Source: Ilumatobacteraceae bacterium
GTDB taxonomy: Bacteria > Actinomycetota > Acidimicrobiia > Acidimicrobiales > Ilumatobacteraceae
Assembly (NCBI GenBank): GCA_021298195.1
Contig: JAJTEQ010000001.1
Span: 102,110-166,109, forward strand
Direction: 5' to 3'
Length of the DNA: 64,000 nucleotides
A program made the position numbers and the translations under genes. The notes below the pieces were generated by a model that saw only the letters and a list, made by a program, of their open reading frames with translations, did no database searches and had not been told where the DNA came from. Positions 3,204 through 29,783 of the stretch are shown here, one piece after another. Each line of letters starts with the position of its first letter. The stretch's first letter is position 1.

Positions 3204-4238
3204 ATGTTTTTGATCTCGGGGATGAGCGACCGCGTCCCCATGTCCGAGGTGGGGGCGTACGCCAAGCGAGTCGAGGCGATGGGCTTCGACATCCTGCACG
3301 TACCCGAGACCGTTCACGACTCGATGGCGGTGTCGTTGTTGGCGCTCATGGCCACCGATCGGCTGCGGGTCCAGACCAGCCTCACCTTGGCCTTCCCCCG
3401 TAGCCCGATGCTGTTGGCCCTCCAAGCATGGGACGCGTCGGCCGCCGGCGCGGGTCGCTTCGATCTGGGTCTGGCCACGCAAATTCGACAGAACATCGAG
3501 GGTCGGTTCGGCGTTCCGTGGAGTGATCCGCTGCGACGCATGGAGGATTACGTCACGGTCGTGCGCGCCGTCTGGAGATCGTTCACCGAAGGTTCTCCCC
3601 TAAATGTGAGCACCGCGTCGTACACCCTCGATCGTTTGCAACCTTTTTTCGATCCCGGCCCGCTGGCACACGACCCGCCGACGATCCTCCTCGGCGGCGT
3701 GAACCGCGGCGCGATCGAGTTGGCCGGTCGCTGCGCCGACTGGTTCGTGACACATCCGACCAATTCGCATCCGCGATTCGTGCGCGAGTTGGCGATGCCG
3801 GCCCTCGACAGCGGTGTCGAACAGGCTCGACGTCCCGACCGGCCGCGCATCATCACCGCCTCTCCGCTCATCACCGGTCCCGACGTGGACGCCGTCGACC
3901 GAAGTCGCCAAACTCAACGCGCGGTGCTGGCGTTCCTCTACTCCACCCCCGCGTACCAGCGAACGCTCGAGCTGTTCGGGTGGCCCGAACTGGGTCCGCG
4001 ACTGCGAACCATGACGCGCAACGGTGACTGGGCGTCGCTCGGCGCGCTCATGACCGACGAGGTTCTCGACACCGTTCTGCCCACGGGAACCTGGGACCAA
4101 CTTCCCGACATCCTCGAGGGCTGGTACGGCGGTCTGGTCGACGGGCTGTTGATTCAACCGCCCGAGGATCCGTCTCTCGACGCACGATTCTCCGAGACCC
4201 TGCGGGCCATCGGATCGATCCGGCCGCGGCTCGACTGA
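3204..4238 (+). CDS. LLM-class (luciferase-like) flavin/F420-dependent oxidoreductase
   Basis: In-frame ATG at 3204 inside the overcalled ORF 1950..4238. LLM-like text: AKRVEAMGFDILHVPETVHDSMAVSLLALMATDRL...FDLGLATQIRQNIEGRFG. The upstream part of the ORF is antisense to the Rieske gene. Confidence 0.75.
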   Translation: MFLISGMSDRVPMSEVGAYAKRVEAMGFDILHVPETVHDSMAVSLLALMATDRLRVQTSLTLAFPRSPMLLALQAWDASAAGAGRFDLGLATQIRQNIEGRFGVPWSDPLRRMEDYVTVVRAVWRSFTEGSPLNVSTASYTLDRLQPFFDPGPLAHDPPTILLGGVNRGAIELAGRCADWFVTHPTNSHPRFVRELAMPALDSGVEQARRPDRPRIITASPLITGPDVDAVDRSRQTQRAVLAFLYSTPAYQRTLELFGWPELGPRLRTMTRNGDWASLGALMTDEVLDTVLPTGTWDQLPDILEGWYGGLVDGLLIQPPEDPSLDARFSETLRAIGSIRPRLD

Positions 4239-4772
4239 TCAGGAGTTCGCGATCAGGTCGGCGATCAACGGCTCGAGCGACTCCCGATCCAGGCTCCCCT
4301 GCACCTTGGTCACCGAACCATTCGCATCGATGAAGACCCAGGCCGGTTGATACGGGATCCCGTAGCGAGCGAAAACATTTCCCGAGTCATCGAGAAGACT
4401 GGGGAAGGTGATCTCGTGACGTTCGATGAAGTCGCGCATGTACTCCTCCGAACCGTTCCACGCGACACCGTAAAAGTCGACCGATTCACCGTAGGTGAGG
4501 TGGGCCTCCTCGACCGAGGGGGCTTCGTTGTTGCATTGCGTTCAACCGGGCGCCCAGAACCACAAGACCACGGGACGACCCGACGACCCGACATCAGTGG
4601 TCGGATCGATGAGCAAATCCTCGCCCGCCGACACCGACGAGGAACCATCCGGAAGCACCACGGACCCGACGGTCTCCGTCGAGCCCGCGATGTCGGCCGA
4701 ATCACCACCACAGGCCGTGGCGATCACGGCGACCGCCACCACCGTCGTCAGGAACCTCGCCATCGATCGCAT
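4239..4772 (-). CDS. TlpA/DsbE(MPT53)-like thiol:disulfide oxidoreductase lipoprotein with in-frame UGA at the first redox-motif position (candidate selenoprotein, motif U-T-Q-C)
   Basis: ORFs 4542..4775 and 4239..4439 share one frame (4775-4439=336) and are separated only by TGA at 4542..4544. The joined text reads ...RPVVLWFWAPG-[TGA]-TQCNNEAPSVEEAHLTYGESVDFYGVAWNGSEEYMRDFIERHEITFPSLLDDSGNVFARYGIPYQPAWVFIDANG... This parallels the redoxin pattern WFW-x-P-W-C-x-x-C-N-x-EAP. N-terminal lipoprotein signal MARFLTTVVAVAVIATAC. No frameshift or second stop over 177 codons. Confidence 0.6.
4504..4523 (-). promoter_or_regulatory. candidate bacterial SECIS hairpin downstream of the UGA
   Basis: mRNA GCCCCCUC-GGUC-GAGGAGGC: 4 bp, one C/A mismatch, 3 bp, with a GGUC apical tetraloop. 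It starts 18 nt after the UGA, and the loop starts 26 nt after it. As I recall, the E. coli fdhF SECIS minihelix also has a GGUC loop. Confidence 0.45.
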
Positions 4773-5680
4773 CACGGCGTCACGGTAGACGGGTCCGACT
4801 GTGCCGTCGCATCGGGCGGGCGCGAGGCATTGGTGACGATGGCCACGCCCACCAGGATCACAGGCAGTGCCACGGCCATGTTGGTCGACACGCTCTCGTC
4901 ACTGAAGACGACTCCGAGCAGAACCGCGATGGCCGGATTCACGTACGCGTAACTCATCGCCAATGGGCCACTCACGTTTCCGATCAGGTACGTGAAAGCC
5001 GAGAACGCCACGATCGAGCCGAACACCACGAGGTAGCCGACCGCGAGCCCGCTTCGAAGGCTCGGTGCTTCGACCGTCTCCCGCGACACCAGCGACAGGA
5101 ACATGAAGGCCACCGCGGCGGCCCCCATCTCGATGGTCGTCGTCATCGGTCCGTCGGGCATGTCGACGCGGCGACTGAGGGCCGATCCGAAACTCCAGGA
5201 CACGCAGGCCACGAAGACGAGCGACACACCACCCCACGAACCCGACAGCCCCTCGTCGGACACCAGCACGGCCACCCCGGCCAATCCGATGAACATCCCG
5301 ACCCACTGCATCCGATTGGGCCACGACCGCCAGAGCCCGCCCCACAGGGCCATCATCATCGGCTGAATCGCGATGATCGTCGCCACCAAACCCGAGTCGA
5401 CTCCGCGATCCTCGGCCAACGTCACCATGCCGAGCCCACCGATCAGAAGCATGATCCCGATCAGGGAGGCGTTGCGCGTCTGTCGGCGACTCGGCCACGC
5501 CACTCCACGGGAGCGAAGGATCAACACCATGACGAGCGATGCCACGACGAATCGGCAACCCTGCATGAAGAACGGCGGCATCGTCTCGAGCCCGATCTTG
5601 ATGGCCAGATACGTGGAACCCCAGATCACCCACACGGCGGCCAGTGACAGCACGGTGAGGCGACCGAACGAGCGGGACAT
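4772..5680 (-). CDS. EamA/DMT-family transporter
   Basis: About 302 aa and multi-TM. EamA-like text: LAAVWVIWGSTYLAIKIGLETMPPFFMQGCRF. Only the C-terminal half of ORF 4772..6634 is credible. Start is ATG 5680, or alternatively ATG 5704. Its stop TGA (4774..4772) overlaps the ATG (4772..4770) of the redoxin gene. Confidence 0.8.
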   Translation of the reverse strand: MSRSFGRLTVLSLAAVWVIWGSTYLAIKIGLETMPPFFMQGCRFVVASLVMVLILRSRGVAWPSRRQTRNASLIGIMLLIGGLGMVTLAEDRGVDSGLVATIIAIQPMMMALWGGLWRSWPNRMQWVGMFIGLAGVAVLVSDEGLSGSWGGVSLVFVACVSWSFGSALSRRVDMPDGPMTTTIEMGAAAVAFMFLSLVSRETVEAPSLRSGLAVGYLVVFGSIVAFSAFTYLIGNVSGPLAMSYAYVNPAIAVLLGVVFSDESVSTNMAVALPVILVGVAIVTNASRPPDATAQSDPSTVTP

Positions 5681-5731
5681 GTCGACATTCTCGCCGACGA
5701 CCATGTCGGTCGGACAATCCCCGCCGATACC

Positions 5732-9536: not shown

Positions 9537-9986
9537 TCAGGCCGATGCTCCACCCGAGCCGTCGACGCGCCCCGTCTCGGTGGTTCGTTCCGCTTGGGGC
9601 AGGACGCATTCGGCCGTTCCCCCGGGCATCCGATGTCGGTTCTCGGCCACCCAGCGATACACCGCGGCCGCGATCCGGTCGACCCCGGGAAACACGATGA
9701 ATCGACCGAGCACCTTCCAGAAACCCCCACCGTGGATCAGGGTGCGCGCGACGGCTCGATGCCCCGAAACCACCGTCCCGTCGACATCGACCCACTGCAC
9801 CGCGGTCTCGCACATCTCGACGGTGAGTCCCAATGAACCGAGATCGGTGTGCTGCCAAGCCACGACACGTGGGTGTCGCGCGATGCGCCGCTCGATGAAA
9901 CGCACCGAACGAGCACAGAACGCACAATCGCCGTCGTAGACCAACACGGGATCCGTGAGGGAGGTGGACGAGATGCTCACGACCAC
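9537..9986 (-). CDS. DCC-family (DUF393) thiol-disulfide oxidoreductase
   Basis: N-terminal VLVYDGDCAFCARSVRFI motif typical of the DCC1-like family. 149 aa. Confidence 0.75.
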   Translation of the reverse strand: MVVSISSTSLTDPVLVYDGDCAFCARSVRFIERRIARHPRVVAWQHTDLGSLGLTVEMCETAVQWVDVDGTVVSGHRAVARTLIHGGGFWKVLGRFIVFPGVDRIAAAVYRWVAENRHRMPGGTAECVLPQAERTTETGRVDGSGGASA

Positions 9987-28455: not shown

Positions 28456-29397
28456 ATGACCATGAACGATTTCAACCGTGACGAACTGCGTCGTGCGTTG
28501 CGCGACACCGCTGACCACCGGACCGATGCCCTCGGGTCCATCGTCGAAGCCACCCGGGGCCTGAACTTCGCCCGCTCGCTCTCGCGTCGTCGCTTCTTCG
28601 TCGCCGGCGGAGCGACGGTGTCGTTCGCCGCTTTGGTGGCGGCCTGTGGTGGTTCGGAGTCCACCGGCATCGCCCGCTTGGGTGACGCGCCGACGCCGAA
28701 CGAACTGGTCGAGGCCGACGTCACCGACATCGCCCTGTTGCGCACGGCGACCTCACTCGAGCACAACGCCATCTTCGTGTACGAGGCCGCCGCCAGTGCC
28801 GGCGTCCTCTCCGGTGACGCCGCCGAGATCGCCAAGCGCTTCCTCGACGACCACCGCGCGCACGCCGAGGCCACCGCATCACTCACCCGGAGTCTGGGTG
28901 GCAAGGCGTACACGCAACCCAACCCCCGCCTGCAGTCGATCTACATCGAGCCGGCCCTCACGTTGATCGTGGGCGACGAGGCGAACGGAGTGCCCGCCAC
29001 CGACGATCCGGCCGCCGACGTGCTGGCCCTGGCCTACGCGCTCGAGACCATCGCCGGCGCGACGTATCAGGCGTACGTGCCGTTGCTCGACGACAAGTCG
29101 CTGCGCGCCGCCGCCATGGGTATCGGCGACCAAGAAGCCCGCCACGCGGCGTTGCTCGGCGTCGTTCTCAACCCCGATCGACTGGTGTCGTCGATGGGTC
29201 TCTCCATCGCCGCCGAGTATCAAGAGGACACCGATACCCCGGCCGCGGCCTACGCGTCACCGTCGGCCTTCGGAACCCAGGCGCCGGTTCCGGTGACGCT
29301 GGGTGCCGCCAACGAAAGTGGCATTCGCACCACCGTGAACCTCGAGACCCCGAGCCTGAACTCGATGGTCTACGAGTACCTCGACGCCGAGGGCTGA
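28456..29397 (+). CDS. Tat-signal lipoprotein with ferritin-like domain
   Basis: Twin-arginine plus lipobox SRRRFFVAGGATVSFAALVAAC. Ferritin-like E/H pattern: SLEHNAIFVYE, DDHRAHAEA, ALETIAGATYQ, GDQEARHAA. Confidence 0.65.
   Translation: MTMNDFNRDELRRALRDTADHRTDALGSIVEATRGLNFARSLSRRRFFVAGGATVSFAALVAACGGSESTGIARLGDAPTPNELVEADVTDIALLRTATSLEHNAIFVYEAAASAGVLSGDAAEIAKRFLDDHRAHAEATASLTRSLGGKAYTQPNPRLQSIYIEPALTLIVGDEANGVPATDDPAADVLALAYALETIAGATYQAYVPLLDDKSLRAAAMGIGDQEARHAALLGVVLNPDRLVSSMGLSIAAEYQEDTDTPAAAYASPSAFGTQAPVPVTLGAANESGIRTTVNLETPSLNSMVYEYLDAEG

Positions 29398-29419: not shown

Positions 29420-29783
<364 letters not shown>

What the first reader, a model, noticed from the sequence alone, without database searches (positions are those of the whole stretch)
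4239..4772. Split redoxin ORFs are one gene with UGA replacing the first Cys of CxxC: candidate exported selenoprotein
ORF-track entries 4542..4775 and 4239..4439 are in the same frame and separated only by TGA 4542..4544. Read through, the product is a complete TlpA/DsbE-type thioredoxin-fold lipoprotein. Its active site reads W-F-W-A-P-G-[UGA]-T-Q-C-N-N-E-A-P. In Cys homologues as I remember them (for example mycobacterial MPT53/DsbE, WFWTPWCPFCNAEAP), the stop sits exactly on the nucleophilic Cys. The region after the stop keeps clear family similarity (FPSLLDDSGNVFARYGIPYQPAWVFIDANG), with no second stop or frameshift over about 100 codons, which argues against a decaying pseudogene. Sec-for-Cys in UxxC redoxins is an established phenomenon. 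An Sec-containing, lipobox-anchored extracytoplasmic DsbE-like protein in an actinobacterial-type genome would still be unusual, and automatic annotation would miss it or label it a pseudogene.
Basis: partly seen in the sequence, partly recalled or inferred. Interest (0 to 1): 0.8.

Follow-up and report, generated by a model that had tools for sequence, protein, structure and literature searches.

The report
Selenocysteine redoxin lipoprotein gene, mis-annotated as split
The apparent stop codon inside this small redox-enzyme gene very probably encodes selenocysteine: the same TGA and a matching RNA hairpin recur in 80 related gene copies from 78 aquatic actinobacterial genomes, so this is a real gene of an already known kind that public annotation cuts in two.

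Summary
On the minus strand, 4772..4239 is one reading frame with a single TGA (4544..4542). That TGA sits on the first Cys of the CxxC motif of a thioredoxin-fold protein closest to M. tuberculosis MPT53/DsbE and DsbF.

- The TGA is present in 83/83 family sequences, including 80 loci from 78 Acidimicrobiia/Ilumatobacteraceae genomes at 38-96% identity, and in six independent assemblies of this population.
- The part after the TGA is under purifying selection (dN/dS 0.11-0.33).
- A hairpin at 4523..4504 (CCUC-GGUC-GAGG) carries the same GGUC loop as the E. coli fdhF SECIS. It is fixed even at synonymous sites, and its lower stem covaries.
- A close orthologue in the same gene neighbourhood has TGC.
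- A lipoprotein signal is conserved in 82/83.

No Sec machinery was found in the window or fetched loci, and the rest of the genome could not be searched. Published tables list SelD, SelA and SelB in both Ilumatobacter genomes.

UxxC thioredoxin/Prx-like selenoproteins have been catalogued since 2005-2008, so this is a new member of a known kind. Public annotation splits it into a "hypothetical protein" and a truncated "peroxiredoxin".

The parts
4239..4772 (-). Complete selenoprotein gene: ATG 4772..4770 to stop TGA 4241..4239, 177 codons including Sec77. An alternative GTG start lies at 4775.
   Evidence: Single frame with one internal TGA. Pfam AhpC-TSA/Redoxin/Thioredoxin. MPT53/DsbE and DsbF are the best solved relatives. 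dN/dS is 0.11-0.33 downstream and 0.25-0.91 upstream of the TGA.
4710..4772 (-). Signal peptide with lipobox (MRSMARFLTTVVAVAVIATA|C). The Cys21 codon TGT at 4712..4710 is the predicted lipid-anchored first residue of the mature protein.
   Evidence: 82 of 83 family members show a K/R n-region, a hydrophobic run and [GAS]-C followed by G or A; the 83rd is cut by its contig end. The lipobox Cys lies a median of 60 residues before Sec. This is a pattern-based inference; no signal-peptide predictor was available.
4545..4562 (-). WFWAPG motif directly before the active site. The codon before the UGA is GGT.
   Evidence: Conserved in the family. GGT is used in 79 of 79 Gly cases, while other conserved Gly columns use GGT in 10-35% of sequences.
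4542..4544 (-). UGA read as selenocysteine (Sec77), replacing the first, nucleophilic Cys of CxxC.
   Evidence: TGA in 83/83 family sequences. It aligns with the first Cys of MPT53 and DsbF. A close orthologue has TGC. TGA is present in six independent assemblies.
4533..4535 (-). Resolving Cys80 (TGC) of the UxxC motif.
   Evidence: Cys in 82 of 83 sequences.
4504..4523 (-). Candidate SECIS hairpin, GCC-C-CCUC-GGUC-GAGG-A-GGC. Lower stem 4523..4521 with 4506..4504; 1x1 mismatch at 4520/4507; upper stem 4519..4516 with 4511..4508; loop GGUC at 4515..4512, starting 26 nt after the UGA.
   Evidence: 91% of cells are paired, against 27-55% when the partner columns are slid. Pair 24-39 covaries (CG 38, AU 10, GC 6, GU 3, UG 3). 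L060 has a compensatory U-A in the upper stem. Codons TCG 81/81, GTC 83/83 and GAG 80/81 have near-zero entropy, against 0.7-2.3 bits at other conserved residues. The E. coli fdhF SECIS apex has the same GGUC loop.
4332..4358 (-). IPYQPAWVF motif holding the predicted cis-Pro (Pro143) that faces the active site in thioredoxin folds.
   Evidence: Aligns with 'vpwqpafvf' of MPT53. It is invariant or nearly so in the family, with freely varying codons.
4772..5704 (-). Upstream gene for a YedA-type drug/metabolite (DMT/EamA) exporter. Its stop TGA 4774..4772 overlaps the redoxin ATG, so the two are probably co-transcribed and translationally coupled.
   Evidence: NCBIfam NF008432 YedA scores 295 bits against a cut-off of 270. 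The same adjacency on the same strand is intact in 18 related loci, with remnants in L014 and L026.

Best explanation
This is one gene (4772..4239, minus strand) for a 177-residue selenoprotein. The protein is a lipid-anchored thioredoxin-fold thiol-disulfide oxidoreductase that sits outside the cytoplasmic membrane. It belongs to the actinobacterial MPT53/DsbE-DsbF branch of the TlpA/ResA-like group.

The UGA at 4544..4542 is decoded as selenocysteine. The inferred route is that the mRNA hairpin at 4523..4504 (CCUC-GGUC-GAGG upper stem-loop) recruits SelB carrying Sec-tRNA(Sec) to the ribosome, in competition with release factor 2.

The precursor is then exported. It is lipidated on Cys21 and tethered to the outer face of the membrane by a linker of roughly 45 low-complexity residues.

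In the mature enzyme the selenolate of Sec77 attacks substrate disulfides or oxidised thiols. The mixed selenenylsulfide is resolved by Cys80 to give an intramolecular Se-S bond (UxxC).

Shown here: gene continuity, conservation of the TGA, purifying selection on both sides, the Sec/Cys orthologue pair, the RNA-level constraint and covariation of the hairpin, the conserved lipoprotein signal, and homology to DsbE/DsbF.

Inferred: actual Sec insertion, presence of selA/selB/selC/selD in this genome, export, and the direction of catalysis. The nearest characterised relatives, Mt-DsbE and Mt-DsbF, act as oxidants in vitro. The redox partner is unknown. The co-transcribed YedA-type exporter is the only conserved neighbour, and only within one subclade.
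For: - Single in-frame TGA.
- Thioredoxin-fold family hits, with the TGA on the first Cys of CxxC in the alignments to 1LU4 and 3IOS.
- TGA in 80/80 loci from 78 species-level genomes at 38-96% identity, plus L001 and L009.
- TGA in six independent assemblies.
- dN/dS of 0.11-0.33 after the TGA.
- Cys-form orthologues (TGC) in the same gene neighbourhood and about 90% identical over the mature thioredoxin domain by inspection, still carrying the hairpin.
- Hairpin pairing of 91% against 27-55% for slid controls, with covariation.
- Zero or near-zero codon entropy at the hairpin codons only.
- The same GGUC loop as the fdhF SECIS.
- Divergent members L085 and L087 have a different stem but again GGUC in the loop.
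- Lipoprotein signal in 82/83.
- TGA also serves as an ordinary stop for this gene and for the upstream gene, so there is no global recoding.
- Ilumatobacter coccineus and I. nonamiensis are listed as SelD+, SelA+ and SelB+ with 15 and 10 selenoproteins (PMC5029168 Tables S1/S2). Sec machinery is reported as universal in Actinomarina, another Acidimicrobiia lineage (bioRxiv 10.64898/2026.04.03.716425).
Against: - No tRNA-Sec, SelA, SelB or SelD was found in the 64 kb window or in about 0.9 Mb of related flanks. The rest of the genome could not be searched.
- Folding the window's sequence alone gives no significant stability (z = -0.25).
- RNAalifold recovers only three pairs.
- The upper stem is almost invariant, so its support comes from synonymous-site conservation rather than covariation.
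- Rfam has no matching family.
- There is no protein-level evidence for selenium.
- No redox partner such as a CcdA/DsbD-like or VKOR gene lies nearby.
Confidence: 0.88

Rival explanations
1. Decaying pseudogene: a strain-specific nonsense mutation inactivated an ordinary CxxC redoxin.
For: Gene callers and public annotation treat it as two fragments. No Sec machinery was seen in the window.
Against: The TGA is present in 83/83 family sequences across 38-96% identity. There is no second stop or frameshift. dN/dS after the stop is 0.11-0.33 with saturated dS. A hairpin fixed at synonymous sites follows the stop.
Confidence: 0.02
2. Sequencing or assembly error at 4542..4544.
For: Nothing specific; single-base errors do occur in metagenome assemblies.
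Against: The codon is identical in six assemblies from different samples. The exact 76-aa N-terminal ORF is recorded on 43 contigs. TGA is present in 78 other genomes.
Confidence: 0.01
3. The UGA is read through or reassigned without selenium, for example Trp, Cys or Gly inserted by a near-cognate or suppressor tRNA. The hairpin would then serve as a generic read-through stimulator.
For: Sec machinery was not shown for this genome. Hairpins after stop codons can stimulate read-through in other systems (general knowledge).
Against: The codon sits on the catalytic Cys, where only Cys or Sec preserves function. The loop is the GGUC of the fdhF SECIS. TGA is the ordinary stop of this gene in many family members and of the upstream gene. 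Cultured relatives have SelA, SelB and SelD and many selenoproteins.
Confidence: 0.05
4. A truly split gene: the 76-residue lipoprotein stub and a separately initiated C-terminal fragment are made as two polypeptides, or only the stub is functional.
For: Both halves are called as ORFs. In L001 and L009 an ATG lies five codons after the TGA.
Against: There is no conserved start codon after the TGA: the window's first ATG is 34 codons downstream, at 4439. The split would separate the active-site Cys pair and cut the thioredoxin fold just before its active-site helix. The Cys-form orthologue is a single 177-aa protein.
Confidence: 0.03

Closest known systems
Mycobacterium tuberculosis MPT53/DsbE (Rv2878c, PDB 1LU4) and DsbF (Rv1677, PDB 3IOS)
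   Same: They are the best solved relatives (E 3.4e-21 and 5e-21 over about 100 residues). They share the WFW-x-P-x-CxxC-N-x-EAP active-site context and the (W/Y)QPA(F/W)VF cis-Pro region. They are secreted or membrane-associated single-domain thioredoxin-like proteins of Actinobacteria, and they act as oxidants that fold hirudin in vitro (PMC3853704).
   Different: The first Cys is replaced by a UGA/Sec codon, and Gly rather than Trp precedes it. The gene carries a SECIS hairpin inside the coding sequence. No DsbD/CcdA-type gene lies nearby, unlike Rv2874 and Rv2877c next to mpt53. Activity was not tested.
Predicted bacterial selenoprotein family 'Prx-like thiol:disulfide oxidoreductase' (PF00578, UxxC/UxxU), with the GOS 'Prx-like 1/3' and 'Trx-like' UxxC groups
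   Same: Same defining criteria as used in the field: an AhpC-TSA/Redoxin domain plus a UxxC motif, many Cys homologues, and marine and freshwater metagenome origin. The GOS read JCVI_READ_1091141091063 (…LALLGSAC…VVLWFWAPYUTTCMREA) is a lipoprotein-type relative already listed in 2008.
   Different: The catalogued representative is a Geobacter protein (WP_010940744.1), and direct homology to it was not tested. This Acidimicrobiia clade, its lipoprotein anchoring, its near-invariant SECIS and its closeness to DsbE/DsbF were not described in any paper I could search.
E. coli fdhF SECIS (SelB-binding stem-loop after UGA140)
   Same: A hairpin inside the coding sequence just after the UGA, with the same apical GGUC loop.
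   Different: The upper stem is only 4 bp, followed by a 1x1 mismatch and a 3-bp lower stem. The loop starts 26 nt after the UGA, against 18 nt in fdhF. SelB binding was not tested.
[quoted passage not shown]
   Same: A TlpA/ResA-like thioredoxin fold with Sec at the first active-site position.
   Different: The motif is UGC rather than UxxC, and the proteins are much longer (354-position model). The window protein scores 27.8 bits against a cut-off of 300, so it is not a member.

Membership tests
Bacterial selenoprotein gene (UGA decoded as Sec) | In-frame UGA conserved among orthologues, with coding conservation on both sides | tested here: met
   TGA in 83/83 sequences. dN/dS is 0.11-0.33 downstream and below 1 upstream.
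Bacterial selenoprotein gene (UGA decoded as Sec) | Cys-containing homologues align with Cys at the UGA column | tested here: met
   P0001/P0026 orthologues have TGC in the same gene neighbourhood. P0004-P0008, MPT53 and DsbF have CxxC.
Bacterial selenoprotein gene (UGA decoded as Sec) | SECIS stem-loop shortly after the UGA, with conserved G/U in the apical loop | tested here: met
   The hairpin at 4523..4504 has a GGUC loop. Pairing is 91% against 27-55% for slid controls, with covariation at pair 24-39, and it is fixed at synonymous sites. The loop equals that of fdhF. SelB binding itself was not tested.
Bacterial selenoprotein gene (UGA decoded as Sec) | selA, selB, selD and tRNA-Sec present in the same genome | not testable with these tools
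Literature: both Ilumatobacter genomes are SelD+, SelA+ and SelB+.
Bacterial selenoprotein gene (UGA decoded as Sec) | Selenium present in the protein | not testable with these tools
   Needs 75Se labelling or mass spectrometry.
TlpA/ResA/DsbE-like extracytoplasmic thioredoxin-fold oxidoreductases | Thioredoxin-like domain of the AhpC-TSA/Redoxin type | tested here: met
   PF00578 at 2.6e-14 and PF08534 at 7.5e-12. Solved relatives: MPT53, DsbF, ResA and StoA. No NCBIfam model reaches its cut-off; ResA scores 57 against 170.
TlpA/ResA/DsbE-like extracytoplasmic thioredoxin-fold oxidoreductases | W-x-x-x-CxxC active site and a cis-Pro loop | tested here: met
   WFWAPG-U-TQ-C, with Sec in place of the first Cys. 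YQP aligns with WQP of MPT53. The geometry was not modelled.
TlpA/ResA/DsbE-like extracytoplasmic thioredoxin-fold oxidoreductases | Export signal or membrane anchor | tested here: met
   A lipobox-type signal is conserved in 82/83 sequences. This is a pattern-based test with no dedicated predictor.
Mt-DsbE/DsbF-type oxidants | Oxidant activity and a nearby membrane redox partner (DsbD/CcdA-like) | tested here: not met
   No such gene lies within about 10 kb in the window's population, or within about 3 kb of the gene in L001-L011. The ORF clustering within 5 kb showed no neighbour shared across the family, but it carried no domain annotation. Activity is not testable here, so the direction of catalysis is left open.
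Peroxiredoxin (the label given to the C-terminal fragment by public sources) | Peroxidatic Cys in a PxxxT/SxxC motif rather than a CxxC dithiol | tested here: not met
   The active site is UxxC in the thioredoxin position. The 'peroxiredoxin' name reflects only the shared AhpC-TSA domain.
ResA-like WAxxUGC selenoprotein (NF041054) | Score above the model cut-off and a UGC motif | tested here: not met
   27.8 bits against 300; the motif is U-T-Q-C.

The most novel reading that the evidence does not exclude
This may be a clade-wide, almost obligate selenium dependence of the cell envelope in abundant aerobic aquatic Actinobacteria (Ilumatobacteraceae and related Acidimicrobiia, including bins labelled acIV). 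A Sec-containing DsbE/DsbF-type lipoprotein would work on the outer face of the membrane. In one subclade it would be paired in an operon with a YedA-type exporter that could supply a small thiol to recycle the Se-S bond. That would be a selenium-based envelope redox shuttle not described before. The minimal 4-bp GGUC SECIS would also dictate the conserved S-V-E peptide.
Probability: 0.15. Interest if true: 0.6.

Novelty: new member of a known kind. Interest (0 to 1): 0.4.

Why it matters
- It corrects a systematic annotation error. The gene is stored in public databases as a "hypothetical protein" plus a truncated "peroxiredoxin" on hundreds of contigs.
- It adds a well-supported, very widely conserved selenoprotein to a lineage that is abundant in lakes, estuaries and the sea. 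That bears on selenium demand in these waters.
- It offers a clean natural data set for bacterial SECIS rules: 83 sequences, a Sec/Cys orthologue pair, and an alternative hairpin in divergent members.
- It provides a candidate for the first experimentally tested Sec-containing exported lipoprotein of the DsbE/DsbF type.
- It does not change what is known about how selenoproteins work.

Tried and rejected
- Single-sequence folding of 4470..4550 was not significant (z = -0.25). RNAalifold gave only three pairs. The case for the hairpin therefore rests on named-structure pair counts and codon entropy.
- Rfam showed no SECIS family match at the gathering threshold or at a permissive E-value. This was expected, since bacterial SECIS elements are poorly represented there (also stated).
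- Searches for Sec machinery found nothing. These were ARAGORN on the window and 60 loci, and tblastn with E. coli SelA, SelB and SelD on the window plus all loci.
- Two scans for a second selenoprotein gene found only out-of-frame noise. They looked for in-frame TGA with coding signal on both sides, or TGA followed by a GGUC hairpin.
- ORF clustering and gene calls found no conserved redox partner and no neighbour shared across the whole family. The exporter is conserved only in one subclade.
- The exact motif (WFWAPGU, EAPSVE) is not in the stored part of the GOS supplement, which is truncated. Only a relative was found.
- I ran no further search on SelD. Hits could not be tied to this genome, and an E. 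coli query would return enterobacterial sequences first.
- Structure prediction was skipped because the sequence match to solved structures is already decisive for the fold.

Full report
**Observation.** On the minus strand, 4775..4239 is one reading frame broken only by TGA at 4544..4542. From the ATG at 4772 the product has 177 codons: MRSMARFLTTVVAVAVIATAC…GRPVVLWFWAPG[TGA]TQCNNEAPSVEEA…IPYQPAWVFIDANG…. With the stop written as Cys it matches Pfam AhpC-TSA (2.6e-14), Redoxin, Thioredoxin and Thioredoxin_2. Among solved structures it is closest to M. tuberculosis MPT53/DsbE (1LU4, 3.4e-21) and DsbF (3IOS, 5e-21), well ahead of ResA (1e-8). In both alignments the stop falls on the first Cys of CxxC: 'vlwfwtpwCpfCnaeaps' against 'vlwfwapg*tqCnneaps'.

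**Not an error, not a pseudogene.**
- The window's neighbouring Rieske protein is encoded identically on contigs from many independent metagenome assemblies. In six of them the redoxin gene differs from the window by 0-11 bases and always has TGA at this codon.
- The first protein search returned two short proteins (P0002, P0003) that begin just after the active site. Their contigs read WFWAPG[TGA]GTCRMEAPSVEEA at about 50% identity to the window.
- A scan of one genome per species with the C-terminal half found 109 confirmed relatives. The best 80 loci come from 78 MAGs, mostly labelled Acidimicrobiia, Acidimicrobiales, Ilumatobacteraceae or simply Actinomycetota, and span 38-96% identity.
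- All 80 have TGA at the first-Cys column.
- The region after the TGA evolves under purifying selection, with dN/dS of 0.11-0.33 and dS near or above 1. The upstream part is also below 1.
- TGA also ends this gene and the upstream gene here, and ends the gene in many orthologues. The code is therefore not globally changed.

**Sec/Cys pair.** The closest full-length protein, P0001, has WFWAPGCGTC. Its DNA has TGC and still carries the downstream hairpin. Its 90% cluster also contains many 72-aa fragments, and the most widespread of these (P0024, indexed in 304 blocks of the collection) proved, on the three contigs examined, to be the tail of a TGA form in the same UvrC-like / redoxin / aldehyde dehydrogenase neighbourhood. 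This is an orthologous Sec-to-Cys replacement, the pattern typical of real selenoprotein families.

**SECIS.** I aligned 65 nt from the UGA for 83 sequences; the alignment has no gaps.
- Columns 22-41 form GCC-C-CCUC-GGUC-GAGG-A-GGC, which is window 4523..4504.
- For this named structure 91% of cells pair, against 27-55% when the 3' partners are slid by 1-3 columns.
- Pair 24-39 covaries (CG 38, AU 10, GC 6, GU 3, UG 3), and L060 keeps an upper-stem pair through changes on both sides.
- At residues conserved elsewhere in the protein the codons vary freely, with 0.7-2.3 bits of entropy. The hairpin codons are fixed: Ser TCG 81/81, Val GTC 83/83 and Glu GAG 80/81. Peptide conservation alone cannot explain that.
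- The E. coli fdhF SECIS, extracted from the K-12 record, folds with the same GGUC loop at its apex.
- The two most divergent members, L085 and L087 (WFWAPW-U), lack this hairpin. They have a longer G+C stem 8-9 nt further downstream, again with GGUC in the loop.
- Against this, single-sequence folding is not significant, RNAalifold recovers only three pairs, and Rfam has no matching family.

**Export.** In 82 of 83 sequences the N-terminus has a K/R n-region, a hydrophobic run and [GAS]-C followed by G or A. LSAC, VSSC and LVAC are the commonest forms. The 83rd sequence is cut by its contig end. A variable low-complexity linker follows, and the lipobox Cys lies a median of 60 residues before Sec. 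In the window this is …AVIATA|C21 GGDS…. No signal-peptide predictor was available, so this is a pattern-based inference, though a strongly conserved one.

**Sec machinery.** The window has only tRNA-Pro and RNase P RNA. ARAGORN on 60 loci found no tRNA-Sec. tblastn with E. coli SelA, SelB and SelD found nothing in the window or any locus. The rest of the genome could not be reached, so this check remains open. Published tables list Ilumatobacter coccineus and I. nonamiensis as SelD+, SelA+ and SelB+ with 15 and 10 selenoproteins (PMC5029168 Tables S1/S2). A 2026 preprint reports universal Sec machinery in Actinomarina, another Acidimicrobiia lineage.

[quoted passage not shown] They fold hirudin in vitro and show no insulin reductase or isomerase activity. 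DsbD-like Rv2874 or Rv2877c has been proposed as their partner (PMC3853704). No such partner gene lies near the gene here or in the related contigs with gene calls. ORF clustering within 5 kb likewise found no neighbour shared across the whole family. The one conserved neighbour is a YedA-type DMT exporter (NF008432, 295 bits against a cut-off of 270). Its stop overlaps the redoxin start (ATGA). It sits in the same position and is intact in 18 related loci, and L014 and L026 show only remnants. I therefore commit to a Sec-based, lipid-anchored thiol-disulfide oxidoreductase outside the membrane. Sec77 would attack and Cys80 would resolve. The direction of electron flow and the partner are left open.

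**Comparison with what is known.** Thioredoxin-fold UxxC selenoproteins are long-catalogued predictions. They include Prx-like thiol:disulfide oxidoreductase (PF00578, UxxC/UxxU), thiol:disulfide interchange protein, and the GOS groups Prx-like 1/3 and Trx-like 1-3. The GOS 2008 sequence file already contains a lipoprotein-type relative, …LALLGSAC…VVLWFWAPYUTTCMREA. The UGC-type ResA-like selenoprotein model does not fit, at 27.8 bits against a cut-off of 300. No NCBIfam model reaches its cut-off for this protein. That is consistent with public records splitting the gene into a 76-77 aa "hypothetical protein" (e.g. MCE2762987.1, Ilumatobacteraceae MAG) and a 66 aa "peroxiredoxin/Redoxin" (e.g. 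MEY3567464.1).

**Verdict.** This is a genuine selenoprotein gene with about 0.9 confidence, and a new, well-documented member of a known kind. Interest is moderate. The finding is not surprising to selenoprotein specialists. It is useful as an annotation correction, as a natural SECIS data set, and as a pointer to selenium use at the cell surface of abundant aquatic Actinobacteria.

Noticed in passing
window 4772..5704 (-); L012-L030, about 200-1200 nt upstream of the UGA: A YedA-type drug/metabolite exporter gene (NF008432, above its cut-off) ends on the redoxin start codon (ATGA overlap). The pair is intact in 18 related loci, and the exporter is better conserved (70-97%) than the redoxin. 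In L014 and L026 only remnants of the exporter remain. A functional link, such as an exported thiol, is speculation.
   Followed up: partly
window 4545..4547 and 4539..4541 (-); alignment A2 columns 4-6: The codon before the UGA is GGT in 79/79 Gly cases, while the Cys-form orthologue has GGC. The base after the UGA is never U (A 34, G 34, C 15). Ser at the next codon is always AGY (13/13), never UCN. This looks like selection on the UGA context.
   Followed up: partly
L085 5989..6058; L087 3763..3832: The two most divergent family members (WFWAPW-U-xxC-RGEAP) lack the CCUC-GGUC-GAGG hairpin. They carry a longer G+C stem 8-9 nt further downstream, again with GGUC in the loop (GUCGCGC-AGGUC-GCGCGAC in L085). 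The SECIS has been replaced while its loop was kept.
   Followed up: partly
L092 3001..3534; L105 1501..2034 versus L102 1183..1719: A Cys-form orthologue (TGC) sits in the same neighbourhood as the TGA form and still carries the hairpin, a fossil SECIS. The TGA form's tail, P0024, is indexed in 304 blocks of the collection, far more than the Cys form.
   Followed up: yes
L053 and L086 (both CALACK01); L069 and L078 (both JBIKVV01): Two genomes each carry two paralogous copies of the Sec-redoxin gene on different contigs. In CALACK01 these are the 'RFESTSVE' and 'KSESSSVE' types.
   Followed up: no
window 4236..4241: The redoxin gene and the convergent F420-dependent LLM-class oxidoreductase gene (3204..4238, +) end tail to tail with no spacer. 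Their two TGA stops form the palindrome TGATCA, and no terminator-like gap lies between them.
   Followed up: no
window about 9537..9986 (-), mapped from L096 3161..3610: A DCC1-like thiol-disulfide oxidoreductase (PF04134) lies about 5 kb from the selenoprotein gene. No link between them is shown.
   Followed up: no
L001 4533..5387; L005 1772..2626: In the marine subclade the prolipoprotein diacylglyceryl transferase gene (lgt, PF01790) lies two genes downstream of the Sec-lipoprotein gene. This may be coincidence.
   Followed up: no
L021, L022, L023, L038, L054, L057, L060, L073, L084 (record titles): Several MAGs carrying this Acidimicrobiia-type gene are titled 'uncultured Bifidobacterium sp.' or 'Bifidobacterium breve'. 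L058, L071 and L089 are titled 'Ferrithrix thermotolerans', L074 'Acidimicrobium ferrooxidans' and L039 'Acidobacteria bacterium'. These are probably mislabelled taxonomy in the public records.
   Followed up: no
window 28599..28675 (+) and 29425..29782 (+): tRNA-Pro (UGG) and bacterial class A RNase P RNA (201 bits) are the only RNA genes detected in the window.
   Followed up: no
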